A stretch of DNA of 64,000 nucleotides from Alphaproteobacteria bacterium. GTDB lineage: Bacteria; Pseudomonadota; Alphaproteobacteria; JAJTHO01; CANGYM01. The DNA is taken from positions 1,907 through 65,906 of the forward strand of contig JBILTX010000001.1 in NCBI GenBank assembly GCA_044371315.1, in the 5' to 3' direction. A program made the position numbers and the translations under genes. Position 1 is the stretch's first letter. Each line of letters opens with the position of its first letter. Under the pieces are notes generated by a model that was given only the letters and a program-made list of their open reading frames with translations, was not told where the DNA came from and did no database searches. Below, in pieces: positions 1-21,110 of the stretch.

Positions 1-2
1 TT

Positions 3-278
3 TTGCGGTTTTAATCCTCGCGAGTGCCTTGGCCGTAAAATAGGGGATTTTGGTTGGCGCGGCGTTTTTGGGGTCAGGGATTGATGACAGAGGCTTTAAA
101 GCCCATCACCGATTATGCTTTTGATGTTTTGGGATTTGAATCCCTAACGTTTTCCAACGCGGTGGGAAATTTCCGTTCCCGCCGGATTAAGGAAAAACAA
201 GGGGCCCAATTTTTGGGTATCCGCCTTGGCACTTTTTGGCGGCCTATAGGGCCACCACACCCCCGCACCATGATTTGA
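3..278 (+). CDS. GNAT-family N-acetyltransferase, C-terminal fragment (5' end outside window)
   Basis: The frame is open from the window start. The motif GQGLMTEALKPITDYAFDVLGFESLTFSNAVGNFRSRRIKEKQG resembles the C-terminal acetyl-CoA-binding region of RimJ/RimL-type GNATs. Confidence 0.5.
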
Positions 279-356
279 ATTGTTTTTGATATAAACCTTG
301 ACATTTTTTTTTTTCGATTAGCCTTGCTGAAATGATTTTCATTGAAAGGGGTTTAT

Positions 357-1049
357 ATGGAGGAAGAAATTTCAGAAGAAGAGCTCTCTTTATATGAGTG
401 GTTGTCCAGCCAAACGAAGGAACTTTGGGGGTATCTTGTTCAGGGGGTACCATATCAGAATATTTCTAGCATGTATGATAGGCCTTCCGAAGGCTCTCAG
501 GAACAACAGCAAGGCATAAAGTTTTTGATTGCTGCACCAGAATACCAAAGGTCCAAAGAATTAGTCGTTGAGAAGCCTTTTCTTAGGTTTGATTTAGAAC
601 GTTTTGAAGAATTGTGGAGGGGTTTGCCTGCTATACAGGAAATGCAAGCTGAACAACGGTTTTGTACTGAACGTGCGAGGGAATATTTTGATCAGTGTGA
701 CGATGAAACCCAGCGTGCTGTTCGTCAGGTTATGAAAGTGTTTGAAAAAGCTCAAACAGAAAGAGACAAGCCGCCTTATGATTGGTTTCATTTTGAGTCC
801 ATTCGAAACTATTGCCCATTAGAGTCAGAAAATCCTGATGATTTGACTCAATGGGCTAAAGGTAGAATACATGATTTTTTGGCCATTATTCCCGCTATGG
901 ATTCAGATGTTTCAGGGAAAGCAAGCGATGAAAATTCTCCTGCGTTGGGCCCAATGGAAGGTATAGCAAGGCAAGCGGCAGGCGCATTTGGTAGTGCCGT
1001 CCAAAGATTCCAACATTTAATCGGTATGGGCCGCGACCACACCCAATAA
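357..1049 (+). CDS. hypothetical acidic protein in a low-GC segment, no recognisable domain
   Basis: 231-aa ORF (from the ATG at 357, which has an AAAGGGG SD; an alternative ATG lies at 342). The local sequence is AT-rich compared with its neighbours, and a TTGACA lies about 55 bp upstream. No signal peptide and no TM segment. Confidence 0.45.
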   Translation: MEEEISEEELSLYEWLSSQTKELWGYLVQGVPYQNISSMYDRPSEGSQEQQQGIKFLIAAPEYQRSKELVVEKPFLRFDLERFEELWRGLPAIQEMQAEQRFCTERAREYFDQCDDETQRAVRQVMKVFEKAQTERDKPPYDWFHFESIRNYCPLESENPDDLTQWAKGRIHDFLAIIPAMDSDVSGKASDENSPALGPMEGIARQAAGAFGSAVQRFQHLIGMGRDHTQ

Positions 1050-2126
1050 CCCCCCCCGCGTCATCGTCGCATCCTGTTGCCACAAGTGCTGCGCCAGTGT
1101 CAGGCGTTTGGAGAGTTCGGGGCCCTGCGGCACGCCGGCGGCCATCAGGTCCGCGGCGGTGATGGGGGGCGTGCGGCGATTCCACCATTGGTCAAACAGG
1201 GCGCGGGCGGCGGTGTCGTCGGTTTCGCGGGACAGGGCGCGGGCCAACAGGGCCTCTGGCGATGTCCAGTCCTGCCCCGTTAAGGCATGCTGAAACCAGC
1301 GCCGCTGGGATCGTGTCAGGGGCCACGTGGTTAAGATAACCTCAGGGTCTTGGCACAGGACCAACAACGCCGCTTTGGCCCGATCCACCGGCACATCAAA
1401 AAACCCCATCAGACGGGCGGCCCGCTCTCCCCCATCAAAGGGGGGCAGGTGGGGGGCGGTGATGTTGGATGTGTGCATCTCCGCCAACATGCGGGGCATT
1501 TGGGGGGCGGCCAGCAATTTGATCATTTCCGCCATGATCCGTTCTGCCGATAACGTGGCCAGCCGGTGTCGGTTTTGGGCACAGGCCATCAGGGCGTCTT
1601 CGGACAAGGGCACATCGGCCCCTTGATACCACGCCGCCATGCGCATATACCGCAGGATGCGCAGGTGATCCTCGATAATCCGGTCGTCGGGATTGCCAAT
1701 AAAGCGCACAAAGCGGTTTTTCAGGTCCACCATCCCCCCCAAAGGGTCGTGGATGGTGCCGGCGGCATCCTGATACAGGGCATTCATGGTAAAATCGCGG
1801 CGCTGGGCATCTTGGTCCCATTGATCGGTAAAGACAACCTGGGCATACCGGCCATCTGCCGCATGATCCGACCGCAGCGTCGTAATTTCGTAGGTGTGAC
1901 CGCCGGTATACGCCACAATGGTGCCATAGCGGGCATAGCGGTCTTGGGCGGAAATCCGGCATCGTTCCAACATCGAAACAACTTTATTGGGGGTCAGGGT
2001 TGTGGCAAAATCCACATCCGTCACCGGATAGCCCATCAGAGTATTCCGAACGCATCCCCCCACCATACGGGTGGTGTCGTGCCCTAGGGCCTGAAAAATT
2101 GCCGTGGGGGCAGGGCAGGGGGGCAT
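1017..2126 (-). CDS. cca: CCA tRNA nucleotidyltransferase / poly(A) polymerase family
   Basis: N-terminal GGCVRNTLMG...DVDFATT nucleotidyltransferase head motif. Length is 369 aa. Confidence 0.8.
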   Translation of the reverse strand: MPPCPAPTAIFQALGHDTTRMVGGCVRNTLMGYPVTDVDFATTLTPNKVVSMLERCRISAQDRYARYGTIVAYTGGHTYEITTLRSDHAADGRYAQVVFTDQWDQDAQRRDFTMNALYQDAAGTIHDPLGGMVDLKNRFVRFIGNPDDRIIEDHLRILRYMRMAAWYQGADVPLSEDALMACAQNRHRLATLSAERIMAEMIKLLAAPQMPRMLAEMHTSNITAPHLPPFDGGERAARLMGFFDVPVDRAKAALLVLCQDPEVILTTWPLTRSQRRWFQHALTGQDWTSPEALLARALSRETDDTAARALFDQWWNRRTPPITAADLMAAGVPQGPELSKRLTLAQHLWQQDATMTRGGLLGVVAAHTD

Positions 2127-2414
2127 TTAAAACCGCACCCCCGTTTGGGCCGCGTATCCCAGCGACAGGATCAGCAGCAGCAGGCTGGTGGCACTCAGCC
2201 ACATCGTGCGTTTTCGGGCCCACCACGGGCGCGGGGTGATGGGTATGGTGATGATTTTGGGTTTTAACGTTTGGGGATAGCGGGCACGCGCCCACCGCAG
2301 CAGCGTATCCCCCACCCACGCCAGAATCCATGGCAAAATCAGGGGGATCAACAGGGCAAGAATTTTGTTCAGCATTTGGGTGTTGTCTGGTATAGCTGAC
2401 ACTAATCCTAACAT
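2127..2414 (-). CDS. small hypothetical membrane protein (2 predicted TM)
   Basis: ORF abuts the cca start codon and has two hydrophobic helices. The start is uncertain because it would overlap the divergent MoxR gene. Confidence 0.3.
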   Translation of the reverse strand: MLGLVSAIPDNTQMLNKILALLIPLILPWILAWVGDTLLRWARARYPQTLKPKIITIPITPRPWWARKRTMWLSATSLLLLILSLGYAAQTGVRF

Positions 2415-2433
2415 AACCCCGTTTGATTCGCCA

Positions 2434-3408
2434 ATGGTTGATGTTCCCCAAATTCAGGCGGCGACGGCTTCGGCCCGCGCCATCCTTTCTGAAATGCGCC
2501 GTCATGTTTTGGGACAGGATGAAACCTTGGCCCTGTTGCTGACCACCCTGTTGTCGGGGGGACATGCGTTGATGGTGGGGATGCCTGGGCTGGCCAAAAC
2601 GAAATTGGCGGCGTGTATGGCGGGATTGCTGGGGTTATCCATGGCGCGGGTGCAATGTACGCCGGATTTGATGCCATCCGACATTTTGGGCAGCGAAGTT
2701 TACGAAGAGGGGGCGCCCGAGCCGTTTCGCTTTATTCCGGGCCCCGTGTTCACCCATATCCTGCTGGTGGATGAAATCAATCGGGCCAGTCCGCGGACAC
2801 AATCGGCCCTGCTGCAGGCCATGCAGGAAAAGGCCGTCACCGTGGCCGGAAAAACCTATCCCCTGCCGTCGCCGTTTCATGTGCTGGCCACGCAGAATCC
2901 GCTGGAACATTTGGGGACGTATCCCCTGCCGGAGGCGCAGCTGGATCGCTTTTTGACCCACATTCAGATGGATTATCCCGATCCCAAAACCGAAGAGGCC
3001 ATTTTGATGGCCACCACCACAGGGGAAGAGCCCCCCCTGACCCCCGTGTTAACGGCGGATACCACGCGATCGCTGCAGGCCATGATCCACGCCATGCCGC
3101 TGGGTCAGGCCGTGGTGCAGGCCATTGTCGCCTTGTGTCAATCCACGCGCCCCGAAAGTCCCTTGGCCCCCGAGATCGTGCGTCGCTGCGTCACCTACGG
3201 CGCGGGGATTCGGGCGGGACAGGCCCTGATGCTGGCGGTGCGGGCGCGGGCGTTGGTGGATGGGCGTTTTGCCCCCACGGTGGAGGACATCGTGGCCCTA
3301 GCCCCCGCCGTCCTGCGCCACCGCATCGGCCTGAATCATCAAGCCCTGCGCGACAAAGTGGGTCCGCTGGATGTCATTCGCGCGGTGGTGGGGGGGATTA
3401 GCGGGTAA
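2434..3408 (+). CDS. MoxR-family AAA+ ATPase
   Basis: Walker A GMPGLAKT, Walker B LLVDEINRA and the following QSALLQAMQE motif. About 325 aa from the MVDVPQ start; an alternative upstream ATG is at 2365. Confidence 0.85.
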   Translation: MVDVPQIQAATASARAILSEMRRHVLGQDETLALLLTTLLSGGHALMVGMPGLAKTKLAACMAGLLGLSMARVQCTPDLMPSDILGSEVYEEGAPEPFRFIPGPVFTHILLVDEINRASPRTQSALLQAMQEKAVTVAGKTYPLPSPFHVLATQNPLEHLGTYPLPEAQLDRFLTHIQMDYPDPKTEEAILMATTTGEEPPLTPVLTADTTRSLQAMIHAMPLGQAVVQAIVALCQSTRPESPLAPEIVRRCVTYGAGIRAGQALMLAVRARALVDGRFAPTVEDIVALAPAVLRHRIGLNHQALRDKVGPLDVIRAVVGGISG

Positions 3409-3685
3409 CTTGTCGTTGTGCCAGTATGGCGGCGAATTCTTTTTCCAAAGAAGGCGTACGACTAAAGCGCACAATGGTGTTGGCGGGTTGCTGAATATGG
3501 GCCTCAATACCTTTGGCTAGTATCTCTAAAGCGGCTCCTTGGAGTTCTTTAGGAAGCTGGCCAACTGTTTGGCCTAGAACGGTTTCTTGATATTCTTTGG
3601 ACTGAGCGAGGAATTCATCAAGATTCCCCAAAAGCTTGGTAGCAAAAACTGCATCACTGTTAGGACTTTGTACCATAAAACCCAC
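3398..3685 (-). CDS. hypothetical small protein adjacent to flagellin (95 aa)
   Basis: ORF in a lower-GC patch. Its start lies 46 bp downstream of a perfect CRP-type palindrome. No recognisable family. Confidence 0.45.
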   Translation of the reverse strand: MGFMVQSPNSDAVFATKLLGNLDEFLAQSKEYQETVLGQTVGQLPKELQGAALEILAKGIEAHIQQPANTIVRFSRTPSLEKEFAAILAQRQVTR

Positions 3686-3730
3686 CTTTCCCTAAACCTT
3701 ACCCCCATAGTATCCCCTATTCGATCAAAA

Positions 3731-3752
3731 AAATGTGACGTGTGTCACATTT
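3731..3752. promoter_or_regulatory. perfect CRP-consensus palindrome AAATGTGA-N6-TCACATTT
   Basis: AAATGTGACGTGTGTCACATTT has a perfect 9-bp inverted arm. It is centred about 57 bp upstream of the 3398..3685 start codon on the minus strand. Confidence 0.5.
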
Positions 3753-3878
3753 TGGGGGGGGTGAAAAGAAAAACCCCCCATAAAACGCCCTCTCCCTTTC
3801 AGGGAGAGGGCTGGGGAGAGGGTGTTTCAGGTACGCAAAAGCCCCCTCTCCCTAACCCTCTCCCCGTGGGGGAGAGGG
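3753..3878. repeat. array of GC-rich hairpins built from the GGGAGAGGG/CCCTCTCCC motif, REP-like
   Basis: G8-N12-C6 hairpin. CCCTCTCCC-tttca-GGGAGAGGG at 3788-3810. GGGGAGAGG at 3813-3822 pairing with CCCCTCTCC near 3843-3852. CCCTCTCCCC-gtg-GGGGAGAGGG at 3856-3878. Confidence 0.55.
3762..3810 (-). terminator. putative intrinsic terminator of the flagellin transcript
   Basis: On the minus strand the 3788-3810 hairpin is followed by a T-rich run (GCGTTTTATGGGGGGTTTTTCTTTTC). Confidence 0.45.
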
Positions 3879-3915
3879 AAAATAGGAAAAGGGGGCGATA
3901 GCGTGGTTAGGATAA

Positions 3916-5895
3916 TTATCCCACCAGACGCAGCAACTGCTGGGGCATCTGGTTGGCCTGGGCAGCAACCCCAACCGCAGCCTGCAGCAAGGCCTGGTTT
4001 TTGTAGAAGTTGCTGGATTCCGCCGCAAAGTCCACATCAACAAACTGACCGTTGGCCGCGTTGCTGTTTTCAATAACGGTGGTTAGGTTGGTGTCGATTT
4101 GGCTGAACCGGCTTTGCAAGGCACCGATTTTGGCGGTGTTCTTGTTCAGCGTGTCGATGGCTTCATCAATCACCCCCTGCGCGGCTTGGGCACGGGCCGC
4201 CGTGTCAATGGCAATCAAATTGGCGCCATTGGCGTCGGTGATGCCCAATTCTTTGGTCGATACAGAATCCAACTCAACAGAGATAAGATCATTGAATGCA
4301 TCCAAACCAACCTGTGTGGTCACAGAGGTTTTTCCAGATTTTTCAACGTCAAAGCGGAATTGGTAGTTGTTGGATCCAAAGGTCACTTGTTGGAACGTTT
4401 CATCAGCGGCAAGGGTCGATGACGTTCTACGCAACTGATCGTTGGTAAAGGTCAATTCCACCCCGTTGCTGAAGGAAACCGTTGTCAAATTGGCATTATC
4501 ATCAATGTCAGACACATCCTTAACTACAGCGTCGTACGTCTGACCCTTTTGATCCTGAATGCGGAATGTGGTTGTGTCCGCATGGGAATCAAAGCTGGAG
4601 GTCAGGGTATACGTGCCGGCGGCTGTGCTGCTGGAGGCTTTCAGGATATTGTCATAACCACCCGCGGTTTGGGCCGTGGAGGTTGTGCCCAGTCCTAAGG
4701 ATGTCAGCGGAGTTCCTACACCGTTGGCAAGCGTAAAGGTCGATGCAGGATCCAGAGAGTATAAAACAAGATTCAATCCTCCGGTACCCGCAGAAGCATC
4801 ATCTCTTAGGGTTGCCGCTACCCCTGTTTGTTCTGAAATAGCATTGATTTTGTCCCGTATGGATCCAATGCCTTCATTGAGCGTAAGAGCTGCTGTAGTT
4901 GCAGATCCAGTGCTTCCCGTAATCGTAATTGTAGCCAGTGCCGCAGCAGCCGAAGGGGTAGCTTCTGTTGCAAAGTCCAAGGTACTGACAACACTGGATA
5001 CAACCGTAGTATCCGATCGGAATGCATTGGCTGTTTCTGTGATGTTGGCAGCGCGGAAGACAACTTCACTGCCCCCTGTGCCCACACCCAGAATTTGTTT
5101 CAGGTCGCTTTCCATGGTGTCTTCAGTTCCTGCTGTGACAACCAAGGCACCGTCAGCGTTAGATATTGTAAACCCATTGTTGTCGTTGGTGGTGCTTTTA
5201 AACTGAATGGTGCTGCCTATTGCTGCGTTTTGCTTCACTTCACCGCGAAAGGTTTCCATTTGGGCACCATTTTTGATATCCATTTCGATGATGTAATTGG
5301 TGTTGGCATCGTTGCGTGTTACGCGTACGTCATCAATGGTCCCCTCAACAGCACCGGTGTAGTTACTAAGGGCAATGTTAGTATTATTAAAGTAAGTTCC
5401 ATCTAAAGTTTGTAAGGAACTGTTTACAATACCAGCAGTGGTCACGTTGGTGCCCGCTTTAAATGTGGCATTGGCACCGCCTGCCAGTAATTTAATGCCG
5501 TTCATTTGGGTTTGGTTCACGGTGTTGTCGATCTGCTTGATCAATTCGCCGAATTCTTCTTGGGAAATCAGACGCTCAGCATCGGACAGGGTTCCGTTCA
5601 CGGCCTGTGTGGACAGGGTTTTCAAACGGGTTAACAATTCACTGACCCGTGTCACACCCCCACCGGCAATCTGCAGCAAGGATGATGTTTGTCCGGCGTT
5701 CACTTTGGCCTGGGTTAATGTGGCAATGTTGGATTTCAATTTGTTAGAAATAGCGAGTGAAGCCGCATCATCCGAAGGGCGCACAATACGCGAACCCGAT
5801 GACAGCTTTCCAACACTGGCAGCGGCATTGCGCGAGTGGATGTTGATATTGGCATTAGCGGCTTCAGCAGAGCTGTTGGTTAAGATACTAGGCAT
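3916..5895 (-). CDS. flagellin (659 aa) with a large central hypervariable domain
   Basis: N-terminal flagellin D0/D1 region (LSSGSRIVRPSDDAASLAISNKLKSNIATLTQA, NAGQTSSLLQIAGG). C-terminal D0 region (NSNAANGQFVDVDFAAESSNFYKNQALLQAAVGVAAQANQMPQQLLRLVG). The middle region is rich in T, S, G and N. Confidence 0.9.
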   Translation of the reverse strand: MPSILTNSSAEAANANINIHSRNAAASVGKLSSGSRIVRPSDDAASLAISNKLKSNIATLTQAKVNAGQTSSLLQIAGGGVTRVSELLTRLKTLSTQAVNGTLSDAERLISQEEFGELIKQIDNTVNQTQMNGIKLLAGGANATFKAGTNVTTAGIVNSSLQTLDGTYFNNTNIALSNYTGAVEGTIDDVRVTRNDANTNYIIEMDIKNGAQMETFRGEVKQNAAIGSTIQFKSTTNDNNGFTISNADGALVVTAGTEDTMESDLKQILGVGTGGSEVVFRAANITETANAFRSDTTVVSSVVSTLDFATEATPSAAAALATITITGSTGSATTAALTLNEGIGSIRDKINAISEQTGVAATLRDDASAGTGGLNLVLYSLDPASTFTLANGVGTPLTSLGLGTTSTAQTAGGYDNILKASSSTAAGTYTLTSSFDSHADTTTFRIQDQKGQTYDAVVKDVSDIDDNANLTTVSFSNGVELTFTNDQLRRTSSTLAADETFQQVTFGSNNYQFRFDVEKSGKTSVTTQVGLDAFNDLISVELDSVSTKELGITDANGANLIAIDTAARAQAAQGVIDEAIDTLNKNTAKIGALQSRFSQIDTNLTTVIENSNAANGQFVDVDFAAESSNFYKNQALLQAAVGVAAQANQMPQQLLRLVG

Positions 5896-5980
5896 AGAAA
5901 AAGACTCCTTGCTACGTGCATGATGGATGTCCTACATGGACAGGTTAAATCGGCAAAAAAGACCGATCGGCAAAAAAGGG

Positions 5981-5997
5981 TGCATGAAGTGTGCCAA
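5981..5997 (-). promoter_or_regulatory. sigma-54 (-24/-12) promoter candidate for the flagellin gene
   Basis: The minus strand reads TTGGCACACTTCATGCA, i.e. TGGCAC-N5-ATGCA. This fits the GG-N10-GC spacing with one mismatch to TGGCACG-N4-TTGCA. It lies about 85 bp upstream of the ATG. Confidence 0.5.
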
Positions 5998-6154
5998 AAG
6001 GGGTGTTTTTTGCCGAGCCCGCAACCAAAAATTGCAAAGAACCGGCAAAACCTGCCTAATTCCATGAAAAATAAGGAAAAAATACATAAAATGCACGGCA
6101 TTCAGGCACATTTTGCCCTGCACATTTTGCCGGTGGGTAAAAAATGCCTATCGT

Positions 6155-7291
6155 TTAAAGCGTATTCAGCGCTGCCCTAAAATCGGTGATCAGATCGCTG
6201 GGATCCTCAACTCCCACAGACACCCGCAGCAGGTTGGGGGGCGTGGTGAGTTTATAATCCTCGACCGTTGCGCGATGTTCAATTAAACTTTCGGTGCCGC
6301 CTAGGGATGTGGCAACCTTGAAAATCCTGAGTGCCCGAATCACCGCCAAGGCCGCCGGTGCCCCGCCGCGCACCAAAACGGACATCAGGGCCCCATAACG
6401 GCCATGCATCTGAACCCGCGCGGTATCGTGCCCAGAGTGGGATGGCAGGCCTGGGTACAAAACGCCCTCAACTTTGGGATGGGCTTGCAGGGCCAGCGCC
6501 AAGGCCAAGGTGTTGTCACAACTGGCCGCAATCCGCAGATGCAGGGTTTTCATCCCCCGCAGCAATAACCATGCTTCAAAAGGTCCCAGAATCCCCCCCA
6601 GTGTGCCGCGCAGTTTTTTGATGGTTTGCCACAGGGCGGTGTCTTCTTTGGCAATCACGGCCCCCGCAATCACATCATGATGACCGTTCAGGGCCTTGGA
6701 ACACGAATGCACCACAAAATCCGCGCCTAGGCGTAGCGGCTGGGTCAGCAGGGGCGTGGGCACGGTGTTATCCACCACCAAAATTGCGCCGCAGCCCCTC
6801 GCGATGGCGGCAGCGTCGGCGATGTCCGTGATGTCCATCATGGGATTTGACGGCGTTTCCACCCAAATCACATCGGTGCGTCCAGCCCCCGCCACGCGGG
6901 CCAGATCATCAGGGTTACTGTTGTCATAGACCCGCACACCGTACCCCCACTGCCCTGCCCATTCCAAAAACCAGTTGGACAGCCCCACATATAATGTTTT
7001 CGGCACCACAAACTGGGCCCCTGCTTTTTGGGCCAATAAAACTGCGCTGCAGGCCGCCATGCCAGAGGCATAAACGGCGCTTTCAAAGCCACCCTCCATC
7101 AGGGTCAACAAACGTTCCACATCCAGATAGGTGGGATTTTCGGGGCGTGCATACACCCGTCCTGCTTCGTATCCTGTATCCGTAGGTTGACGGGCAAAGG
7201 TGGCGGAGGGGTAAATGGGCGGCACGATGGAACGGGTGGTGGGCTCGATGGCGGGGGTGGCTTGGGCCAAGTGGGTGTGGATGTGGGACAT
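6155..7291 (-). CDS. Cys/Met-metabolism PLP-dependent enzyme (O-succinylhomoserine sulfhydrylase / cystathionine gamma-synthase family)
   Basis: Family-typical block around the PLP-lysine, SCSKALNGHHDVIAGAV. The internal start MSHIHTHLAQ is preferred over the longer ORF. Confidence 0.8.
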   Translation of the reverse strand: MSHIHTHLAQATPAIEPTTRSIVPPIYPSATFARQPTDTGYEAGRVYARPENPTYLDVERLLTLMEGGFESAVYASGMAACSAVLLAQKAGAQFVVPKTLYVGLSNWFLEWAGQWGYGVRVYDNSNPDDLARVAGAGRTDVIWVETPSNPMMDITDIADAAAIARGCGAILVVDNTVPTPLLTQPLRLGADFVVHSCSKALNGHHDVIAGAVIAKEDTALWQTIKKLRGTLGGILGPFEAWLLLRGMKTLHLRIAASCDNTLALALALQAHPKVEGVLYPGLPSHSGHDTARVQMHGRYGALMSVLVRGGAPAALAVIRALRIFKVATSLGGTESLIEHRATVEDYKLTTPPNLLRVSVGVEDPSDLITDFRAALNTL

Positions 7292-7354
7292 AAATTTGCG
7301 TTGGTTGGGAAAAAAGGTTATGATGACTGCCTTTATTATCATGTTTTCACCGTT

Positions 7355-8704
7355 ATGAGTAGTTTTCACCGCGAATCTTGGTCCCCTGATGCTTGGCAGC
7401 GCCTGCCCATTGTGCAACATCCCACCTATCCGGATCAGGCGGCCTTGCAAGGCGTCAAAGCCCAACTGTCCAAAATGCCCCCGCTGGTCTTTGCGGGGGA
7501 GGTGCGGGCCCTAAAGAGAAAATTGGCCAAAGTGGCCAGAGGCGAGGCCTTTTTGCTCCAAGGCGGGGACTGCGCCGAAAGTTTTGTGGAATTTGGGGCC
7601 AACAAAATTCGGGATACGCTGCGCGTGATTCTGCAAATGGCTGTGGTTTTGGCCTATAGTTCCGGCAAGCCTGTGGTAAAAATTGCGCGTATGGCCGGCC
7701 AGTTTGCCAAGCCCCGATCGGCGGATATGGAAACCATAGGGGATATAACCCTGCCCGCGTATCGCGGGGATATCATTAACGGCATGGACTTTACACCAGA
7801 GGCACGGTGCCCTGACCCCGAGCGTATGTTGCGCTGTTATTATCAATCCGCAGCCACGCTGAATTTGATTCGCGCCCTTTCCGAAGGGGGCTATGCCAAC
7901 ATTCACAAGCTGAACCGGTGGAGTTTGGATTTCGTGGCGGCCTCTCCCGTGGGGCATCGTTACCAAGACACCATCGACAGTATCACCAAGGCCCTGAGCT
8001 TTATGGAAGCCTGCGGTCTGACGGCAGAACAGGTGCCCCAAATTGAAAAAACAACGGTGTATACATCTCATGAGGCTTTGTTGTTGCACTATGAAGAATG
8101 CTTAACCCGCATTGATAGCTTAACAGGGGATTGGTACGACACCTCGGCCCATATGGTGTGGATTGGGGATAGGACCAGACAGCCGGATCACGCCCACGTG
8201 GCCTTTATGCGCGGCATCGGCAACCCCGTTGGCATCAAGTGTGGCCCAACCACGGATCCCCAAACGTTGGTAGACATTATCAAAACCATAAACCCCGATA
8301 ACGAAGAGGGTCGCATCGTCCTGATTTCCCGTATGGGGGCGGGCAAGGTGGAGGCCCACTTGCCAACCTTGATTGAGGCTGTTGAAGCCACGGGGCAATC
8401 GGTGGTTTGGTCCTGTGATCCCATGCACGGCAATACCCATAAAACCAGCGATGGGACCAAAACACGATCCTTTGACGCTATTTTACAAGAAGTTAGAGAG
8501 TTTTTTGCCGTTCATAAAAAAATGGGCACCCACGCTGGTGGTGTTCATATCGAAATGACGGGACAGGATGTCACGGAATGTGTCGGCGGCGGCCAGCAGT
8601 TGGGGGAAGAGGATCTAAAACATCGCTACGAAACCCACTGTGACCCCAGACTGAATGCGTCACAGGCTTTGGAATTATCCTTTTTGCTGGCGGATGTTGT
8701 CTAA
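7355..8704 (+). CDS. class II 3-deoxy-7-phosphoheptulonate (DAHP) synthase
   Basis: About 449 aa from MSSFHRESWSPDAWQ. Class II N-terminus LPIVQHPTYPD..., followed by LLQGGDCAESF. Confidence 0.85.
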   Translation: MSSFHRESWSPDAWQRLPIVQHPTYPDQAALQGVKAQLSKMPPLVFAGEVRALKRKLAKVARGEAFLLQGGDCAESFVEFGANKIRDTLRVILQMAVVLAYSSGKPVVKIARMAGQFAKPRSADMETIGDITLPAYRGDIINGMDFTPEARCPDPERMLRCYYQSAATLNLIRALSEGGYANIHKLNRWSLDFVAASPVGHRYQDTIDSITKALSFMEACGLTAEQVPQIEKTTVYTSHEALLLHYEECLTRIDSLTGDWYDTSAHMVWIGDRTRQPDHAHVAFMRGIGNPVGIKCGPTTDPQTLVDIIKTINPDNEEGRIVLISRMGAGKVEAHLPTLIEAVEATGQSVVWSCDPMHGNTHKTSDGTKTRSFDAILQEVREFFAVHKKMGTHAGGVHIEMTGQDVTECVGGGQQLGEEDLKHRYETHCDPRLNASQALELSFLLADVV

Positions 8705-8720
8705 ACCTTATAAGGGCTGA

Positions 8721-9692
8721 TCAGTGCTGCCTGTGGGCTAGGCTTTGGAGAATATCCCCAAAAGCGTCGTGAATCGCCTTGGGGCCCCCTAAGGTATGAA
8801 GGGCCTCTGTTGCCTGCTGGGTGTGGTGAACAACCAGATGGTGCATATCAGAAAAAATGCTGTGTTCGTGCATCAGTTGGGTCACTTTGGGCAGGCTGCT
8901 ACGGCGTTCCTCCTCATGATCCATTAGGCTTTGCATCCATGTTTTTTTAGACGGGGAAACCCGTTGATACAGGGTTAGCCAAGGCCACGTTACCTTGCCC
9001 TCTAAAAAATCTTTTCCGATGCTTTTGCCCAAGGATTCCCCTTGGGCGGTGTAATCCAACAGATCATCCTGCAACTGAAACGCCAGCCCCAAGTGTAACC
9101 CCAGACGGCGCAACTGATTGCATGTCTCTTGGGGTTTTTGCGCCAAATACCCCGTGACCTCGCAGGCTGCGGCAAACAATTCGGCGGTTTTGCGCTCAAT
9201 GATGTTAAAATAATGCTCTTCTGTCATGGTCAGGTTTTTCAGGGATAGCAGTTGCAGCACTTCTCCCTCAGCAATGCGGGAAGAGGCCCGTGCCAGAATC
9301 TCCAACACCTTCAGCGTTTTGGTTTCCACCATCAATTGAAACGCCCGACTGAACAGGAAATCCCCCACCAGAACGTTGGCCGCATTGCCCCACACCAAGC
9401 GGGCACTGGCTTTGCCGCGGCGTTCCTCCGCCTGATCCACAACATCATCATGCAGCAGGGTGGCGGTATGGATGCATTCCACGGCGGCGGCCAGAGGATA
9501 GTGACGATCCTCTTTATAATCCATCAACCCCGCACAAGCCAAGGTCAGCAAAGGTCGAATGCGTTTGCCCCCTGCATCCAGCAAATAATGGGAAAGGTCC
9601 GGAATTAGGGCAATACCAGAGGATACGTTTTCTGACAACAGGGCCTCAACCCTCCTCATTTCATCTGAAAACAGTATGCTGAGCGTATCCAT
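8721..9692 (-). CDS. ispB: polyprenyl diphosphate synthase (octaprenyl-diphosphate synthase-like)
   Basis: First DDxxD motif LLHDDVVDQAEERRG and second motif FQLQDDLLDY. Length is 323 aa. Confidence 0.75.
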   Translation of the reverse strand: MDTLSILFSDEMRRVEALLSENVSSGIALIPDLSHYLLDAGGKRIRPLLTLACAGLMDYKEDRHYPLAAAVECIHTATLLHDDVVDQAEERRGKASARLVWGNAANVLVGDFLFSRAFQLMVETKTLKVLEILARASSRIAEGEVLQLLSLKNLTMTEEHYFNIIERKTAELFAAACEVTGYLAQKPQETCNQLRRLGLHLGLAFQLQDDLLDYTAQGESLGKSIGKDFLEGKVTWPWLTLYQRVSPSKKTWMQSLMDHEEERRSSLPKVTQLMHEHSIFSDMHHLVVHHTQQATEALHTLGGPKAIHDAFGDILQSLAHRQH

Positions 9693-9740
9693 AATCGTTT
9701 TTTCCTAGCGTTGCTTCGTTTTCCGTTCTAAGGTGCTTTT

Positions 9741-10643
9741 ATGTCAAGCGTTTTCCCGTTTTTTCGCCTTTTTTTTGTGTTGATGGTTTTGGTCATGGCT
9801 TCGGCCTGCGCCCTTAAAGAAGAGGCCTATCGCAGAGCGGCCAACGAAGAGGCCTCAGCATCATTGATAAAAATTGGGGATTCTTCCTTTGAGGCTGAAA
9901 ATTATCAACCCGCCCTTGACCTTTATTTGCGTGCCTACAAAAAAAAACCCGATGATGCCACACTGGAAAAAATCGCCGTGACGTTTGACCGCATGGGGAA
10001 CCCTCAGGCCTCTTATCAAACCTATCTTTTGTTGCAACAAAACAACCCTAAAAACGAATTGTATCTTAAAAATCTGGCGCAGGCGGCCTTTTATGCCGAA
10101 GATTTTCAGGCCAGTCAGAAATACTATCAGGATCTTTTGCAAAGGGATCCCAGCGATGGCAATCACTTAGGCGCAGGCGTTGTTGAGGATGTTTTGGGGC
10201 ATCACGATACAGCCCAAAACCATTATCGCCAAGTTATCGAGCATAGCCCTCGGAATTTGAATGCCAAAAATAATTTGGGCCTTTCGTTGTTGTTACAGGG
10301 TAAGGTGACGGAGGCAGAGGCCCTTTTCAAGGCCCTCACCGAACGCGCCGATAGCGAGCCGCGTTTTGATATGAATCTGGCTCTTGTTTACGGTGTTTCG
10401 GGAAAATCGGCGCAGGCTGAATCGTTGTTAAAAAAATATCTTTCCCCAGAGGACGTGGCATCAACCCTGCAATTTTATCGGGATTATAGTTTGCTGAATG
10501 CGGAACAACGCCGGCGGGTGGTGTATGGGTTTTCCGAAAACCCTGAAACGGACCCCAAGTCCGACTCTGCGGCAGGGTCTTTAAAAGCCTTTCTTTCCCC
10601 AAGGCCATCTGGCACGGAAGAGCCAGATGCGTCTAAGCCTTAG
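9741..10643 (+). CDS. secreted tetratricopeptide-repeat protein
   Basis: N-terminal signal peptide ending ...MASAC, followed by multiple TPR-like repeats (YQPALDLYLRAYKKKPDD, NNLGLSLLLQGKVTEAEALF). Confidence 0.7.
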   Translation: MSSVFPFFRLFFVLMVLVMASACALKEEAYRRAANEEASASLIKIGDSSFEAENYQPALDLYLRAYKKKPDDATLEKIAVTFDRMGNPQASYQTYLLLQQNNPKNELYLKNLAQAAFYAEDFQASQKYYQDLLQRDPSDGNHLGAGVVEDVLGHHDTAQNHYRQVIEHSPRNLNAKNNLGLSLLLQGKVTEAEALFKALTERADSEPRFDMNLALVYGVSGKSAQAESLLKKYLSPEDVASTLQFYRDYSLLNAEQRRRVVYGFSENPETDPKSDSAAGSLKAFLSPRPSGTEEPDASKP

Positions 10644-10647
10644 TCGG

Positions 10648-11328
10648 TTATTTAGGAGGAGAACCCTTTTCCGGTTCGCTGGTGGGGGCGTCGTCTTCAG
10701 GGATGGGGATAAACACGGGATCCCCCGCTACCAAAGAATAACGAAAAGATACATGCTTTCGTTTTTTTAGGGTTATCAGTCGCGCCAGATACAATACCCC
10801 CCCCAAAAAAGCAAAAACCCAGATGGTTCCGAGAATCCACAAACTATGCAGACCGAAATAAATCAACAGCATACCAGCGGCGATTACTAGGCACAGGGTT
10901 TGCTTGATGCTTTTTTTGAGTTCTTTTTCCGTATATTGACTGGCGTATTCAATATCATAGCGTTTTTTACTGAGCGTCATGGGGGCAATACGCATTTGGG
11001 GACGCAGGGCTTGGAAACGTTTGTTTTCATCCATTTTCAGTTTCAATCGCCACCCTGCAATCATCAAAATCAGAATCGGCAACGTGACGATGTCAATCAC
11101 AATCAGCAGCAGGCAGGATATCAGGATTCCTACAATCAGGGCGATGTAGGTGGGATGCATGAAGGGTGCTTCCCATTGATCTTTAATACTTTTTGTGGCC
11201 ACATAACCAATGCCGCCGCGTTTATGGGCAAAGGGATGAATCAGAAACTCCCCCTGTCTCGTGGGGCGCACGCAAACGCGGTAGTGATGGCGCCGCATGC
11301 GAGAGGTCATCCAAAAAGGATAGATCAT
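10648..11328 (-). CDS. hypothetical membrane protein, paralog A of a tandem pair
   Basis: N-terminal cytoplasmic motif R-x-R-P-x3-GEFL-x-HPFAHKRGGIGYV followed by TM helices. Shares this architecture with the upstream paralog. Confidence 0.6.
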   Translation of the reverse strand: MIYPFWMTSRMRRHHYRVCVRPTRQGEFLIHPFAHKRGGIGYVATKSIKDQWEAPFMHPTYIALIVGILISCLLLIVIDIVTLPILILMIAGWRLKLKMDENKRFQALRPQMRIAPMTLSKKRYDIEYASQYTEKELKKSIKQTLCLVIAAGMLLIYFGLHSLWILGTIWVFAFLGGVLYLARLITLKKRKHVSFRYSLVAGDPVFIPIPEDDAPTSEPEKGSPPK

Positions 11329-11969
11329 GGCTTTTCTCCCTCAAGGGGGGGCAACAATCCTTCTGTTCGTCCCAAAGACAGCTTTGCAGCTTTCCAGCGC
11401 GACGTTAGCAGCATGTATGCGCGGTACCCGTAATACGCTGTCATCAGGGCCGCAAGAACCAATACCAAAAGCTGTTGGCGCAGACTATCCCCCGAGAGGC
11501 CATAAATCATAGTTCCGATAAAAAGGATCAGCAGAAAAATAGAAAAAAGAGACAAAACAAAAATATAAAAACGGGAAACCTGCAGCGATCGCTCCATCCA
11601 ATACCGTTTGAATGTCAATCGGTGGGGCAGGGGGGTTAAGTGTGACAAAAAGGCATCAAAGCGTCGTTTCTGCCAGTCATAATTCAAAACGCCCAGCCAG
11701 ATCCCCAATCCCAACCCCAACAAGGATCCGATCAGATCATAATCAAAAAGCCAGGCAATGAGCAGGCCCAACAACAGCGTGGGTACAAACACAAAAGCAA
11801 AGGGATCCCAATCAGCGGTTTTGGCCTGTTCCAAATCCTTGGCATTGACGGCATACCCCACGCCGCCGCGATGATGGTCAAAGGGGAAATAAAGAAAATC
11901 CCCCCCCTCGCTGGGGCAGGGACGCAGGCGGATTTCTGTACGTTTTCTTATTTGGCGATTGAAAAACAT
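11325..11969 (-). CDS. hypothetical membrane protein, paralog B of a tandem pair
   Basis: N-terminal LRPCPSEGGDFLYFPFDHHRGGVGYAV followed by TM helices. Overlaps paralog A by 4 bp. Confidence 0.6.
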   Translation of the reverse strand: MFFNRQIRKRTEIRLRPCPSEGGDFLYFPFDHHRGGVGYAVNAKDLEQAKTADWDPFAFVFVPTLLLGLLIAWLFDYDLIGSLLGLGLGIWLGVLNYDWQKRRFDAFLSHLTPLPHRLTFKRYWMERSLQVSRFYIFVLSLFSIFLLILFIGTMIYGLSGDSLRQQLLVLVLAALMTAYYGYRAYMLLTSRWKAAKLSLGRTEGLLPPLEGEKP

Positions 11970-12047
11970 CGTGACATCGTTTTTGGTTTTTTACAGTTTT
12001 ATGGGTAAGATGCTGTAAGATTACAATCTCAATGTCAATAAACCGTT

Positions 12048-13859
12048 ATGGCCTCTTTCCTATCCGCCCCCCTGTCGCACAGGCTTTCGCCCGTGATTTT
12101 GCCGTTGTTGTTTGTTTTGGGGATGAAGATTCTGCCCATCATGACCCAGCCGCAAAACTGGACAGAAACGATGACGGATCCCGATGCAATTTTGCGTTTG
12201 GTGGTGGTGGATAATCTGATTCAAACGGGGGACTGGGGGGATCATCGGATTCATCGGACCAACCCCCCCACGGGAACCGTGACCCCGTGGACACGGCCCA
12301 TGGATGGTGTGGTGTTGACAGGGTATGCGTCCATGCGGTTATTTTTGGATGAAAAACAGGCCCTCATCGGATCGGCCATGATCATGCCGCCGCTGTTGTT
12401 TGTTTTGGGGCTTGTCTTTGTGTGGCGATGGATGGCGTCACAGGGGATGCCGATTTATGCCCAGCTCTTTGTTTTGATGGCTATGGCTCTTAATCCGTGG
12501 TTCAGAGCGTTTGATCCTGGTGCCGTTGATCATCATGGCTTGCTTTTGGTGTGTGCTTGGATGCAGTTTCTTTTGACCTATAGCGTGATTCAGGGTAGGG
12601 GGCATCACGCCCCCTACTTGGCCATGGTTACAGGATTGGGAATATGGGTTTCCCCTGAATTTTTTATCGTGTCATTTTTATCGTTTGCGGGGTTGGCCTT
12701 TTGCTGGTTAAGGTGCCCTAGGGAGTATCACGCGCCTTTTTTAAACGTTCTGTGGATCACAACCTTGATTCTGGCGGTGGCTGTTGGGATAGAGCAGCCT
12801 GTGTTTTGGGTGCCTTTTTATGACACGGTTTCTGTGGTTTACGTGGCGTTGTTGGCCATGATGACGGCGGGCTTTTGGGCCCTGAAAGCAACAGAGCGTC
12901 ATGATCTGTGGGACCGTTTGTTTTTTGCGGTGGGTGTATTGATTTTAATTTTGGGGGTTATGCGGTGCCTTTATCCGGAATTTTATAAACTCACCATGGG
13001 GGGGCTAGATCCCTATATCATAAAGTCTTTTTTGCCCAGCGTGTCGGAACAACAGGCGTTGGTGGATGGCTTTAAAGATATTTTTCCCCCCCAACCGTGG
13101 ATAGGGATTGTGGTTTCTCATCTTTTGTTTTTTTTGGGATACGGGTTTTTCTTTCATCGGCTGAGGGTGACGAGGGGGGAGTTTTTTCAGGGACATTCTC
13201 CGGACCTCTTCGTGTTTGTTTATGCGGTGGTGACCTTAGGGTTGGGGGTGGCAGTGGTGCGCCTTTATCCTTATTCCCTTTTGCCTGGGGTGTTTTTATT
13301 TTTGCCTGTTTTGGATGCGTTGGTTAAAACGCCCAAACTCTCCGCTTTATCCGACAGTTTAAGAGCGTGCTGTGTGATCATTATAGCGGCTGTGCCCATG
13401 TTGAGTTTGGCGTTTTTGATGAGTTTGGCGGAACTTTGGCCGTCATCGCAAAAAGATGGTGTGGATAATGCCTGTGATGACGATACGCGGGTTTTTATCC
13501 AAAACGCCCTGATGCCCGCCCTGCCCCAAGCCCATTTGATTTTCACCCACAACAACGATATGCCCGCGTTGCTGTTTTGGACCCCCTACACGGCCTTGGC
13601 GGGGAATTATCACAGAGAGCCTGCCGCCCTGAAAGATTTGGCAACGTTTTTTTCCGCCAAGACAGAGAGCGAAGCCCAAGCTTTGATCCAAAAACATCGT
13701 CCCGATGCGGTGATTGTGTGTTTAAAACGGGCAGAGCCCCGTGGCCGCTGGATTTATGATGTGGCCACTGGAAAAATCAACCCACCCGACGGCCTGAAAC
13801 GTATTTCCACAGACGAAAAGCTGTATCCTAACATTCGGCTGTATCAGGTCAGCCCTTAA
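12048..13859 (+). CDS. large polytopic membrane protein (603 aa) with a C-terminal soluble domain; possible GT-C-like glycosyltransferase
   Basis: More than 10 hydrophobic helices and a first loop with DPDAILRLVVVDNLIQTGDWGDHRIHR. The soluble C-terminal part is about 150 aa. Family assignment is uncertain. Confidence 0.6.
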   Translation: MASFLSAPLSHRLSPVILPLLFVLGMKILPIMTQPQNWTETMTDPDAILRLVVVDNLIQTGDWGDHRIHRTNPPTGTVTPWTRPMDGVVLTGYASMRLFLDEKQALIGSAMIMPPLLFVLGLVFVWRWMASQGMPIYAQLFVLMAMALNPWFRAFDPGAVDHHGLLLVCAWMQFLLTYSVIQGRGHHAPYLAMVTGLGIWVSPEFFIVSFLSFAGLAFCWLRCPREYHAPFLNVLWITTLILAVAVGIEQPVFWVPFYDTVSVVYVALLAMMTAGFWALKATERHDLWDRLFFAVGVLILILGVMRCLYPEFYKLTMGGLDPYIIKSFLPSVSEQQALVDGFKDIFPPQPWIGIVVSHLLFFLGYGFFFHRLRVTRGEFFQGHSPDLFVFVYAVVTLGLGVAVVRLYPYSLLPGVFLFLPVLDALVKTPKLSALSDSLRACCVIIIAAVPMLSLAFLMSLAELWPSSQKDGVDNACDDDTRVFIQNALMPALPQAHLIFTHNNDMPALLFWTPYTALAGNYHREPAALKDLATFFSAKTESEAQALIQKHRPDAVIVCLKRAEPRGRWIYDVATGKINPPDGLKRISTDEKLYPNIRLYQVSP

Positions 13860-13890
13860 ATAATTATTTGGTGCAATAATTATTTGGTGC
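13857..13890. repeat. tandem 16-bp direct repeat AATAATTATTTGGTGC x2 that includes the tRNA-Leu 3' end
   Basis: Seen directly in the sequence. The repeat unit is GCACCA plus the palindromic AATAATTATT in the tRNA orientation. Confidence 0.6.
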
Positions 13891-13970
13891 CCCAGGAGGG
13901 ACTTGAACCCCCACACCCTTGCGAGTAGCAGATTTTGAGTCTGCCGCGTCTACCATTCCACCACTGGGGC
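13885..13970 (-). tRNA. tRNA-Leu (anticodon CAA)
   Basis: Reverse complement folds as a type II tRNA. Acceptor GCCCCAG/CTGGGGC, anticodon loop CTCAAAA, long variable arm, T-loop GGTTCAAGTCC, encoded CCA. Confidence 0.9.
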
Positions 13971-14079
13971 ATTATCAACGGTGTGCTTTATACCAAGGTT
14001 TTGGGGGGTGGTCAAATTTTCCTTAAAAAAAATTTTGTGGCGATGGGCGGGGGGATTTGTTAAGGTCAGCGACCTTTGT

Positions 14080-14163: not shown

Positions 14164-14178
14164 CCTTGTTTTATTGGA

Positions 14179-14334: not shown

Positions 14335-14369
14335 CCTGTGATGCTTTGACGATAAACAAACGTACCATA

Positions 14370-21104: not shown

Positions 21105-21110
21105 ATAATT

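What the first reader, a model, noticed from the sequence alone, without database searches (positions are those of the whole stretch)
3731..3752. Perfect CRP-consensus palindrome between the flagellin 3' end and a small unknown gene
AAATGTGACGTGTGTCACATTT has a perfect 9-bp inverted arm and matches the enterobacterial CRP consensus (AAATGTGA-N6-TCACATTT) at every arm position. It is centred about 57 bp upstream of the start codon of the 95-aa gene at 3398..3685, which places it at a class-II-like distance if the 5' UTR is short. A Crp/Fnr-family regulator is encoded at 23644..24336 in the same window. A perfect site in an alphaproteobacterium, next to the flagellin gene, suggests cNMP-dependent control of a flagellin-associated factor.
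Basis: seen in the sequence. Interest (0 to 1): 0.6.

Follow-up and report, generated by a model that had tools for sequence, protein, structure and literature searches.

The report
Conserved CRP-type promoter site beside flagellin
A perfect, evolutionarily conserved CRP-type regulator binding site probably switches on a small, rapidly changing gene next to the flagellin gene of an uncultured lake alphaproteobacterium; this is an ordinary kind of control element in a new organism.

Summary
The palindrome is real, and it is the only copy in the 64-kb window. It is slightly longer than reported: AAAATGTGAC-GTGT-GTCACATTTT, 3730..3753.

It lies on the coding strand between the flagellin terminator and a small ORF. 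That ORF most likely starts at the conserved ATG at 3676, not at the GTG at 3685.

Three diverged lineages of the same uncultured Alphaproteobacteria clade (Lake Mendota and other metagenomes) were compared:
- The arms AATGTGAC/GTCACATT are 16/16 identical in all three.
- The central 4 nt vary.
- The flanking sequence is only about 64% identical.
- The true flagellin terminator next door shows compensatory stem changes over the same distances.

A TAnnnT hexamer always sits exactly 21 bp after TCACA, with no -35 hexamer. This puts the site centre at -41.5 of a predicted start at 3700, which is class II geometry.

The Crp-family protein at 23644..24336 carries a CAP-like recognition helix (RETVAR) and the FGE/RSA cNMP motifs.

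Best reading (about 0.6): a CRP-family activator site of a class II promoter. Binding, the ligand and the transcript start are untested.

No other such site and no nucleotide cyclase were found in the window. The downstream gene is a hypervariable mosaic cassette of unknown function.

The parts
3730..3753 (.). 24-bp inverted repeat AAAATGTGAC-GTGT-GTCACATTTT. It contains the 22-bp CAP consensus match (3731..3752) and the 16-bp core TGTGA-N6-TCACA (3734..3749).
   Evidence: single copy, 0 expected by chance. The arms are 16/16 identical in three lineages while the central 4 nt are 2/4 identical.
3707..3712 (-). -10-like hexamer TACTAT. It reads TACTGT, TATGGT or TAGGAT in relatives, so the pattern is TAnnnT. 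It starts exactly 21 nt after the last A of TCACA in every lineage.
   Evidence: Read and alignment A2. T1, A2 and T6 are kept while the inner positions vary. This is an inferred promoter element, not a mapped one.
3700..3700 (-). Predicted transcription start: an A preceded by a T, 7 nt after the hexamer. It puts the palindrome centre (3741.5) at -41.5.
   Evidence: Inference from the spacing. The T/A step lies inside the block GGGGNTAAGGTTT, which is conserved in all lineages. There are no transcript data.
3694..3706 (-). Conserved block GGGGGTAAGGTTT, a G-rich discriminator plus the first transcribed bases. It contains an alternative -10 candidate, TAAGGT.
   Evidence: Nearly invariant columns in A2. 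If TAAGGT were the -10 element, the site would be centred near -52.5.
3682..3688 (-). Shine-Dalgarno sequence AAGGTGG, 5 nt before the ATG at 3676.
   Evidence: Read; conserved in relatives.
3398..3676 (-). Small ORF of 92 aa, all-helical, with no known family. It is a hypervariable mosaic cassette in relatives.
3754..3779 (-). Downstream half of the flagellin terminator (GGGGGG plus a T-run) followed by a conserved C-run that abuts the palindrome.
   Evidence: Comparison with the intact terminator CCCCCGAAGAGG-TTTT-CCTCTTCGGGGG-TTTTTCTTTG in relatives (-27 kcal/mol).
3780..3890 (.). Long-hairpin insertion of about 111 nt (two CCCTCTCCC-N5-GGGAGAGGG hairpins) that replaced the inner stem and loop of the flagellin terminator.
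   Evidence: The same insertion is in L014 and L001, and is absent from the other relatives. Sub-threshold miRNA-like Rfam hits only reflect the hairpin.
3916..5895 (-). Flagellin gene (659 aa), upstream neighbour on the same strand.
   Evidence: Pfam Flagellin_N, Flagellin_C and Flagellin_IN; NCBIfam flagellin models.
23644..24336 (+). Crp-family regulator (230 aa) and candidate binder. F-helix RETVAR, cNMP pocket FGEL..RSA.
   Evidence: Pfam cNMP_binding and HTH_Crp_2. BLASTP alignment to E. coli CRP. Best PDB match is the Thermus Crp structure 4ev0. RETVAR is present in 90 of 95 homologues.

Best explanation
The palindrome is the DNA binding site of a dimeric CRP/CAP-type transcription factor, one whose recognition helix carries R-E-x-x-x-R. 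It forms the activator site of a class II promoter that drives the small ORF at 3676..3398 on the minus strand.

In this model the regulator binds TGTGA-N6-TCACA centred at about -41.5 and takes the place of the missing -35 element. It recruits RNA polymerase to the TAnnnT -10 hexamer at 3712..3707, and transcription starts near 3700. The resulting 24-nt leader carries the Shine-Dalgarno sequence.

The Crp-family protein encoded at 23644..24336 is a plausible binder. Its ligand is probably a cyclic nucleotide, but whether that is cAMP or cGMP is open.

Shown: the sequence match, its conservation, the fixed spacing to the hexamer, and the regulator's motifs.
Inferred: the transcript start, activation rather than repression, which protein binds, and the ligand.
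For: (1) Consensus match. The site matches the 22-bp CAP consensus at all 16 specified positions. It is the only such site in 64 kb, with 0.00 expected by chance.

(2) Phylogenetic footprint. Three lineages were compared: the window clade, L016 and L017, whose MoxR proteins are 98, 90 and 88% identical to the window's. The arms AATGTGAC/GTCACATT are 16/16 identical in all. The central 4 nt read ACAC, ATCC and ATAT. Sequence downstream to the ATG is 34/53 identical and upstream sequence 8-10/15 identical.

(3) Internal control. The flagellin terminator, which ends 14-17 nt upstream of the palindrome, shows compensatory stem changes over the same distances: G>A with C>T in L016, and A>G with T>C in L017. 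A structure-only constraint therefore does vary here, yet the palindrome arms never change.

(4) Promoter geometry. A TAnnnT hexamer sits exactly 21 nt after TCACA in every lineage, keeping T1, A2 and T6 while the inner bases vary. There is no -35-like hexamer: the -35 position reads CATTTT. A conserved T/A step lies 7 nt downstream. Together these give the canonical class II -41.5 geometry. On the opposite strand no -10-like hexamer lies at that distance.

(5) A matching regulator. A cNMP_binding plus HTH_Crp_2 protein is encoded in the window. Its residues align with R180, E181 and R185 of E. coli CRP (RETVAR), and with E72 and R82-S83. RETVAR is kept in 90 of 95 homologues down to 37% identity.

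(6) Precedent. The R. centenum CRP homologue CgrA footprints on TGTGA-N6-TCACA (PMC4681086), and R180, E181 and R185 are the CAP residues that read TGTGA (PMC10187061).
Against: - There are no binding, expression or transcript-start data.
- Only three independent lineages are available, all from one clade. The other roughly 15 loci carry the same intergenic sequence as the window.
- A second fully conserved TAnnnT candidate, TAAGGT, lies 11 nt further downstream. It would place the site at about -52.5, which is not a productive CAP position in E. coli.
- The palindrome can also fold as an RNA hairpin of about -10 kcal/mol followed by a T-run.
- No further strong site occurs in the window or in the roughly 48 kb of relatives' flanks, so a regulon is not visible.
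- No nucleotide cyclase is encoded in the window.
- By eye in the alignment, the CAP AR2 residues used in class II activation (H19, H21, E96, K101) are not conserved, and T127 is replaced by A. The activation contacts and the ligand may therefore differ from those of CAP.
Confidence: 0.6

Rival explanations
1. The palindrome is an operator for a repressor, either a Crp-family protein acting negatively or an unrelated dimeric helix-turn-helix protein. Because the site overlaps the -35 region, it would shut the small-gene promoter off rather than switch it on.
For: The sequence-level conservation of both arms shows protein recognition but not its sign. The site overlaps the -35 position, where repressors also bind. 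No regulon or cyclase is visible in the window.
Against: There is no recognisable -35 hexamer and no extended -10 element, so the promoter looks activator-dependent. The site matches the CAP consensus at 16 of 16 positions, including the A/T flanks. A CAP-type F-helix protein is encoded nearby. Operators of the LacI type use TGTGA-N4-TCACA spacing with a central CG, which is not the case here.
Confidence: 0.15
2. The palindrome acts as RNA. It would be a second, weak, possibly bidirectional intrinsic terminator or insulator hairpin behind the flagellin gene: AAAAUGUGAC-ACAC-GUCACAUUUU followed by a U-run.
For: The hairpin folds at -9.6 to -10.8 kcal/mol in all three lineages, well below shuffled sequences (z from -2.8 to -5.1). 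It is followed by 7-8 T in the window clade and in L017, and it lies downstream of a highly expressed gene. In the window and in L014 the main terminator has been disrupted by an insertion.
Against: - Only 3 of the 10 stem pairs are G-C, and the consensus scan did not call the hairpin a terminator.
- A -27 kcal/mol canonical terminator ends 14-17 nt upstream in every relative without the insertion.
- In L016 the T-run is interrupted (TTCTTTCT).
- The stem shows zero substitutions and no covariation (covariation term +0.11), whereas the adjacent real terminator covaries.
- A terminator here would leave the small ORF, which has a conserved Shine-Dalgarno sequence, without room for an ordinary promoter.
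- No Rfam family matches the region.
Confidence: 0.12
3. The palindrome marks a recombination or cassette-exchange boundary. It would be a site used to swap the hypervariable small gene, rather than a transcriptional element.
For: The ORF downstream is replaced by unrelated or mosaic sequences in loci whose upstream 150 nt are identical.
Against: Variability begins at the start codon, 55 nt from the palindrome, not at the palindrome itself. In L016 and L017 the sequence between the palindrome and the Shine-Dalgarno sequence has diverged by ordinary point substitutions. No recombinase or integrase gene is adjacent. The far boundary of the cassette, at the MoxR 3' end, has no matching palindrome.
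Confidence: 0.05
4. The palindrome is a chance occurrence without function.
For: Only one site was found, and weak CRP-like matches in the window are at chance frequency.
Against: The expected count for this 22-mer with up to 3 mismatches is 0.00. The arms are 16/16 conserved in lineages whose flanks are about 64% identical. If the positions were independent, that would occur with a probability of about 0.001 per lineage.
Confidence: 0.03

Closest known systems
Class II CAP/CRP-dependent promoters of E. coli (galP1 and the synthetic CC(-41.5) type)
   Same: The 22-bp consensus AAATGTGA-N6-TCACATTT is matched at all specified positions. The site replaces the -35 element and lies 21 bp from a -10-like hexamer, which implies a centre at -41.5. 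A regulator with the R180/E181/R185 equivalents is present.
   Different: The organism is an uncultured freshwater alphaproteobacterium. Positions 6 and 11 (C and G) are also conserved, so the lineage motif is TGTGAC-N4-GTCACA. The AR2 activation residues are not conserved in the candidate regulator (by eye). The transcript start and the ligand are unknown. Natural E. coli sites deviate from the perfect core palindrome (PMC10187061), whereas this one does not.
Rhodospirillum centenum CgrA (cGMP-responsive CRP homologue) and its site TGTGAAGCAGTTCACA at the gcyB-gcyC-cgrA promoter
   Same: It is an alphaproteobacterial CRP homologue that footprints on a perfect TGTGA-N6-TCACA (PMC4681086, PMC10187061).
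   Different: The CgrA site is next to guanylate cyclase genes and autoregulates. Here there is no cyclase nearby, and the target is a small variable ORF beside flagellin. Orthology between the local regulator and CgrA was not tested.
Sinorhizobium meliloti Clr and its motif HGTYHC-N4-GRWACA
   Same: It has a four-base variable spacer flanked by conserved C6 and G11, as in the three lineages here. Clr is alphaproteobacterial and influences motility genes (PMC10187061).
   Different: Position 4 is G here, which is the CAP type, not Y. The Clr F-helix is RPKVNR, while the local protein has RETVAR. The site is therefore not a Clr-type site by the defining residues.
Cyanobacterial SYCRP1 and Pseudomonas Vfr (cAMP control of motility organelles)
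   Same: These are CRP-type regulators that bind TGTGA-N6-TCACA-like sites and link cAMP to motility-related genes (SYCRP1: PMC10187061; Vfr: my own knowledge).
   Different: Here the link to motility rests only on adjacency to flagellin.

Membership tests
CAP/CRP-type DNA binding site | 16-bp core TGTGA-N6-TCACA with A/T-rich flanks (22-bp consensus AAATGTGA-N6-TCACATTT). | tested here: met
   Exact match at 3731..3752. It is unique in the window, with 0 expected by chance.
CAP/CRP-type DNA binding site | The half-sites are conserved as sequence in orthologous regions while the spacer is free to vary. | tested here: met
   Arms 16/16 identical in three lineages. The spacer reads ACAC, ATCC and ATAT. 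Flanks are about 64% identical.
CAP/CRP-type DNA binding site | A cognate regulator in the genome whose F-helix residues are equivalent to R180, E181 and R185. | tested here: met
   The protein at 23644..24336 has RETVAR aligned to RETVGR of E. coli CRP. It has cNMP_binding and HTH_Crp_2 domains. RETVAR is present in 90 of 95 homologues.
CAP/CRP-type DNA binding site | Specific binding by the regulator, stimulated by a cyclic nucleotide. | not testable with these tools
   This needs EMSA, DAP-seq or ITC.
CAP/CRP-type DNA binding site | The site belongs to a regulon, with further related sites at other promoters of the genome. | tested here: inconclusive
   No other site with at least 13 of 16 matches was found in the 64-kb window or in about 48 kb of relatives' flanks. 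Matches at 12 of 16 are at chance level.
Class II activator-dependent promoter | Site centre at about -41.5 from the transcript start, overlapping or replacing the -35 element. | tested here: inconclusive
   The 21-bp spacing to a conserved TAnnnT hexamer and the lack of a -35 hexamer fit this geometry. However, the start is only predicted, and an alternative hexamer, TAAGGT, would give -52.5.
Rho-independent terminator | A G+C-rich stem followed directly by a U-run. | tested here: not met
   Only 3 of 10 pairs are G-C. The energy is -10 kcal/mol against -27 for the neighbouring terminator. The hairpin was not called by the terminator scan. The U-run is interrupted in L016.
Rho-independent terminator | The stem is maintained by compensatory changes rather than by its sequence. 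| tested here: not met
   The stem shows no substitutions at all, while the adjacent terminator shows compensatory pairs in L016 and L017.
Clr-type site (S. meliloti) | HGTYHC-N4-GRWACA, read by an RPKVNR F-helix. | tested here: not met
   C6 and G11 are conserved, but position 4 is G. The local regulator has RETVAR (PMC10187061).
Dispersed repeat family (REP or MITE) | Many copies per genome, in unrelated contexts. | tested here: not met
   There is one copy in the window. There is one copy per orthologous locus and none in 70 unrelated loci. A metagenome scan anchored on the flanks returned only orthologous loci. The whole genome was not scanned.

The most novel reading that the evidence does not exclude
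A strictly conserved promoter, probably responsive to a cyclic nucleotide, together with its 5' leader acts as a fixed expression platform. Behind it, a small helical gene next to flagellin is repeatedly replaced or reshuffled by recombination. At least four N-terminal and two C-terminal modules are seen among near-identical genomes. This would be a signal-controlled, diversifying cassette tied to the variable flagellin, for example a filament-specific partner or a decoy under pressure from phage or grazers.
Probability: 0.15. Interest if true: 0.55.

Novelty: new member of a known kind. Interest (0 to 1): 0.3.

Why it matters
CRP-type regulation is little studied in Alphaproteobacteria. The review consulted here describes only CgrA and Clr as studied examples (PMC10187061).

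This site is a consensus-perfect, phylogenetically footprinted candidate in an abundant uncultured lake lineage, paired with a widespread RETVAR subfamily of Crp-like proteins. Together they give a clean, testable promoter-regulator pair. Because the site is perfect for E. coli CAP, the promoter could even be assayed in E. coli.

On its own it is an ordinary regulatory element. The more unusual point is its target, a hypervariable mosaic gene beside flagellin.

Tried and rejected
- Repeat-family idea: rejected. There is a single copy in the window, one per orthologous locus, and none in 70 unrelated MoxR loci.
- Known RNA family: none. Rfam gave only sub-threshold miRNA-like hits on the neighbouring inserted hairpin.
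- RNA structure spanning the intergenic region (C-run pairing with G-runs): RNAalifold gave no covariation support.
- Sigma-54 and sigma-28 readings of the palindrome: rejected by eye, because there is no GG-N10-GC or GCCGATAA in register. A sigma-54-like element is found instead upstream of flagellin.
- LacI-type operator: rejected because of the wrong half-site spacing and the lack of a conserved central CG.
- Function of the small protein: Pfam, NCBIfam, an AlphaFold model (pLDDT 66) and a Foldseek PDB search gave nothing.
- A genome-contig search with the small-protein profile found nothing, because the gene is too variable. The MoxR neighbour recovered the relatives instead.
- A metagenome scan anchored on the terminator and the TAAGGTTT block added only three loci of the window type and no new lineage.
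- A search for a nucleotide cyclase or further flagellar genes among about 55 ORFs of the window found none.

Full report
OBSERVATION

The 22-mer AAATGTGACGTGTGTCACATTT is at 3731..3752, exactly as reported. The inverted repeat extends one base further on each side, giving AAAATGTGAC-GTGT-GTCACATTTT at 3730..3753. With up to 3 mismatches it has no second copy in the window, and none appeared in 100 dinucleotide-preserving shuffles. It is the only perfect TGTGA-N6-TCACA in 64 kb. Matches with up to 2 mismatches are at chance frequency, 26 found against 22.9 expected.

ANATOMY

All relevant genes lie on the minus strand. Reading 5' to 3' on that strand:
- Flagellin, 5895..3916 (Pfam Flagellin_N and Flagellin_C).
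- A terminator region.
- A run of 8 C.
- The palindrome.
- TTTGATCGAATAGGGGA (the stretch between the palindrome and the hexamer).
- The hexamer TACTAT (3712..3707).
- GGGGG-TAAGGTTT.
- A Shine-Dalgarno sequence AAGGTGG (3688..3682).
- ATG at 3676.
- A 92-aa ORF that ends at 3398.

All homologues begin at the ATG. The ORF ends a few bases inside the 3' end of a convergent MoxR-type ATPase gene.

RELATIVES

The small protein has only a handful of relatives, all from metagenomes. Their contigs show the same order: DAHP synthase, Cys/Met enzyme, flagellin, small ORF, MoxR, CCA-adding enzyme.

The MoxR neighbour recovered four species representatives, all titled 'MAG: Alphaproteobacteria bacterium'. 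Three of them carry Lake Mendota-style isolate labels. These are L014 and L015 (98% identity), L016 (90%) and L017 (88%). The next hits fall to about 55%.

Every one of these loci has exactly one perfect TGTGA-N6-TCACA, at the syntenic place. None of the 70 unrelated loci, about 800 kb in total, has one.

CONSERVATION PATTERN

The window clade, about 15 loci, carries an identical palindrome. These genomes are only 7-12% diverged at the DNA level, so that observation is weak on its own.

L016 and L017 are the informative lineages:
- The arms AATGTGAC/GTCACATT are 16/16 identical.
- The central four bases read ACAC, ATCC and ATAT.
- Sequence between the palindrome and the ATG is 34/53 identical.
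- Sequence upstream is 8-10/15 identical.

The canonical flagellin terminator, CCCCCGAAGAGG-TTTT-CCTCTTCGGGGG plus a T-run, folds at -26 to -27 kcal/mol and ends 14-17 nt upstream of the palindrome. Over the same evolutionary distances it shows compensatory changes: GAAGAGA/TCTCTTC in L016 and GGAGAGG/CCTTTCC in L017. A purely structural constraint in this region therefore does produce covariation, whereas the palindrome is conserved as sequence. RNAalifold on the intergenic region gave no covariation support (term +0.11), and the palindrome pairs never vary. This pattern is what a protein recognition site predicts.

PROMOTER GEOMETRY

In all lineages a hexamer of the form TAnnnT begins exactly 21 nt after the last A of TCACA. 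It reads TACTAT, TACTGT, TATGGT or TAGGAT. Only T1, A2 and T6 are kept, and these are the positions that matter most in a sigma-70 -10 element (established knowledge).

Seven bases further downstream lies a conserved T/A step. If the A at 3700 is the start, the site centre (3741.5) is at -41.5. That is the position of class II CAP-dependent promoters, where the activator replaces the -35 element (established knowledge of E. coli CAP).

Consistent with this, the -35 position reads CATTTT, which does not resemble TTGACA. There is also no extended -10 element. On the other strand, no -10-like hexamer lies at that distance.

A caveat applies. A second, fully conserved TAnnnT (TAAGGT, 3701..3696) lies 11 nt further downstream and would place the site at about -52.5. 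Only transcript mapping can decide between the two.

CANDIDATE REGULATOR

The ORF at 23644..24336 has cNMP_binding and HTH_Crp_2 domains. Its best solved relative is the Thermus thermophilus Crp-family regulator 4ev0, followed by GlxR, Clr, CAP and Vfr.

In a BLASTP alignment with E. coli CRP, the recognition helix RETVGR aligns with RETVAR. This keeps the equivalents of R180, E181 and R185, the residues that read TGTGA (PMC10187061). The cNMP pocket residues GE(72) and RS(82-83) are also kept. T127 is replaced by A, and the AR2 residues (H19, H21, E96, K101) are not conserved; both points were read by eye from a 24%-identity alignment.

Of 95 homologues down to 37% identity, which their sources label as Alphaproteobacteria or Rhodospirillales MAGs, 90 keep RETVAR and 81 keep FGE..RSA. 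This is therefore a conserved CAP-like subfamily.

The gene follows a histidine kinase gene after a 39-nt gap. No nucleotide cyclase and no other flagellar gene was found among about 55 ORFs of the window. The protein is a plausible binder, but the genome surely holds other Crp/Fnr paralogues, so the assignment stays tentative.

RIVALS

Terminator or RNA hairpin. As RNA the palindrome folds at about -10 kcal/mol and is followed by a T-run, so a weak terminator role cannot be excluded. This applies especially to the window and L014, where an insertion has disrupted the main terminator. Against it, the stem has only 3 G-C pairs, the terminator scan did not call it, the T-run is interrupted in L016, a strong terminator directly precedes it in every relative without the insertion, and it does not covary.

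Repressor operator. A repressor reading fits the conservation equally well. It fits the missing -35 element less well.

Recombination site. This idea was prompted by the variable downstream gene. It is unlikely because variability starts at the ATG, not at the palindrome.

Chance. Excluded by the conservation.

COMPARISON WITH KNOWN SYSTEMS

The site works like a class II CAP site.

Among Alphaproteobacteria, R. centenum CgrA footprints on a perfect TGTGA-N6-TCACA (PMC4681086). S. meliloti Clr uses HGTYHC-N4-GRWACA, with conserved C6 and G11 and an RPKVNR helix (PMC10187061).

The lineage motif here, TGTGAC-N4-GTCACA, shares the C6/G11 feature with Clr. However, it keeps G4, and the candidate regulator has the CAP-type helix. 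It is therefore CAP- or CgrA-like, not Clr-like.

It is a new member of a known kind.

SIDE OBSERVATIONS

The small ORF behind this conserved promoter is a mosaic, hypervariable cassette. L014 and L015 have identical promoter and leader sequences and 98% identical MoxR. Yet they encode 150-aa and 108-aa proteins with no detectable similarity to the window's 92-aa protein. N-terminal and C-terminal modules are reshuffled among loci.

The window and L014 carry a long-hairpin insertion of about 111 nt (3780..3890) inside the flagellin terminator.

A sigma-54-like TGGCAC-N5-ATGCA lies upstream of flagellin.

VERDICT

Interest is modest.

Noticed in passing
window 3398..3676 (minus strand); L014 7034..7486; L015, L016, L017, L008, L010, L012, L091-L093: The small ORF behind the conserved promoter is a hypervariable mosaic cassette of 79-150 aa. 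Loci with an identical promoter and leader and 98% identical MoxR carry proteins with no detectable similarity to each other. At least four N-terminal types and two C-terminal modules (..ANNIVRFSR.. and ..PSLEQQF.ELL.R..) are reshuffled. There is no Pfam, NCBIfam or structural match.
   Followed up: partly
window 3780..3890: A long-hairpin insertion of about 111 nt, built of two CCCTCTCCC-N5-GGGAGAGGG hairpins, has replaced the inner stem and loop of the flagellin terminator. The same insertion is present in L014 and L001 and absent from all other relatives. It is the only copy in the window and looks like a MITE or REP-like element.
   Followed up: partly
window about 5945..5995 (minus strand), upstream of flagellin: TTGGCACACTTCATGCA fits a sigma-54 promoter (GG-N10-GC). 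It is followed by two TTTTTTGCCGAT repeats that resemble the sigma-28 -10 motif. Flagellin therefore seems to use a specialised sigma factor, unlike the small gene downstream.
   Followed up: no
window 24430..24445: An FNR-like palindrome, TTTGATCGTGGTCAAA, lies in an unusually long (446-nt) gap between the convergent Crp-family gene and der. On statistical grounds it is at chance level.
   Followed up: no
window 3754..3761, 3702..3706 and 3714..3717: A run of 7-8 C directly upstream of the palindrome, and G-runs on both sides of the TAnnnT hexamer (GGGG-TAnnnT-GGGG), are conserved in all three lineages. They are unexplained: they could be a G-rich discriminator, or pairing partners in a read-through RNA.
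   Followed up: partly
window 1..64000: Flagellin is an orphan gene among housekeeping genes (DAHP synthase, MoxR, CCA-adding enzyme, cytochrome oxidase, Lpt and Mla genes). No other flagellar or chemotaxis gene and no nucleotide cyclase was found in the window. A VirB4-like ORF lies at 61255..63705, next to three large ORFs without Pfam hits (56746..61205).
   Followed up: partly
window 21740..24336: The Crp-family gene follows a 621-aa histidine kinase gene after a 39-nt gap. The kinase gene in turn overlaps the end of an mlaA-mlaC pair, which suggests co-transcription of a sensor kinase with the Crp-like regulator.
   Followed up: no
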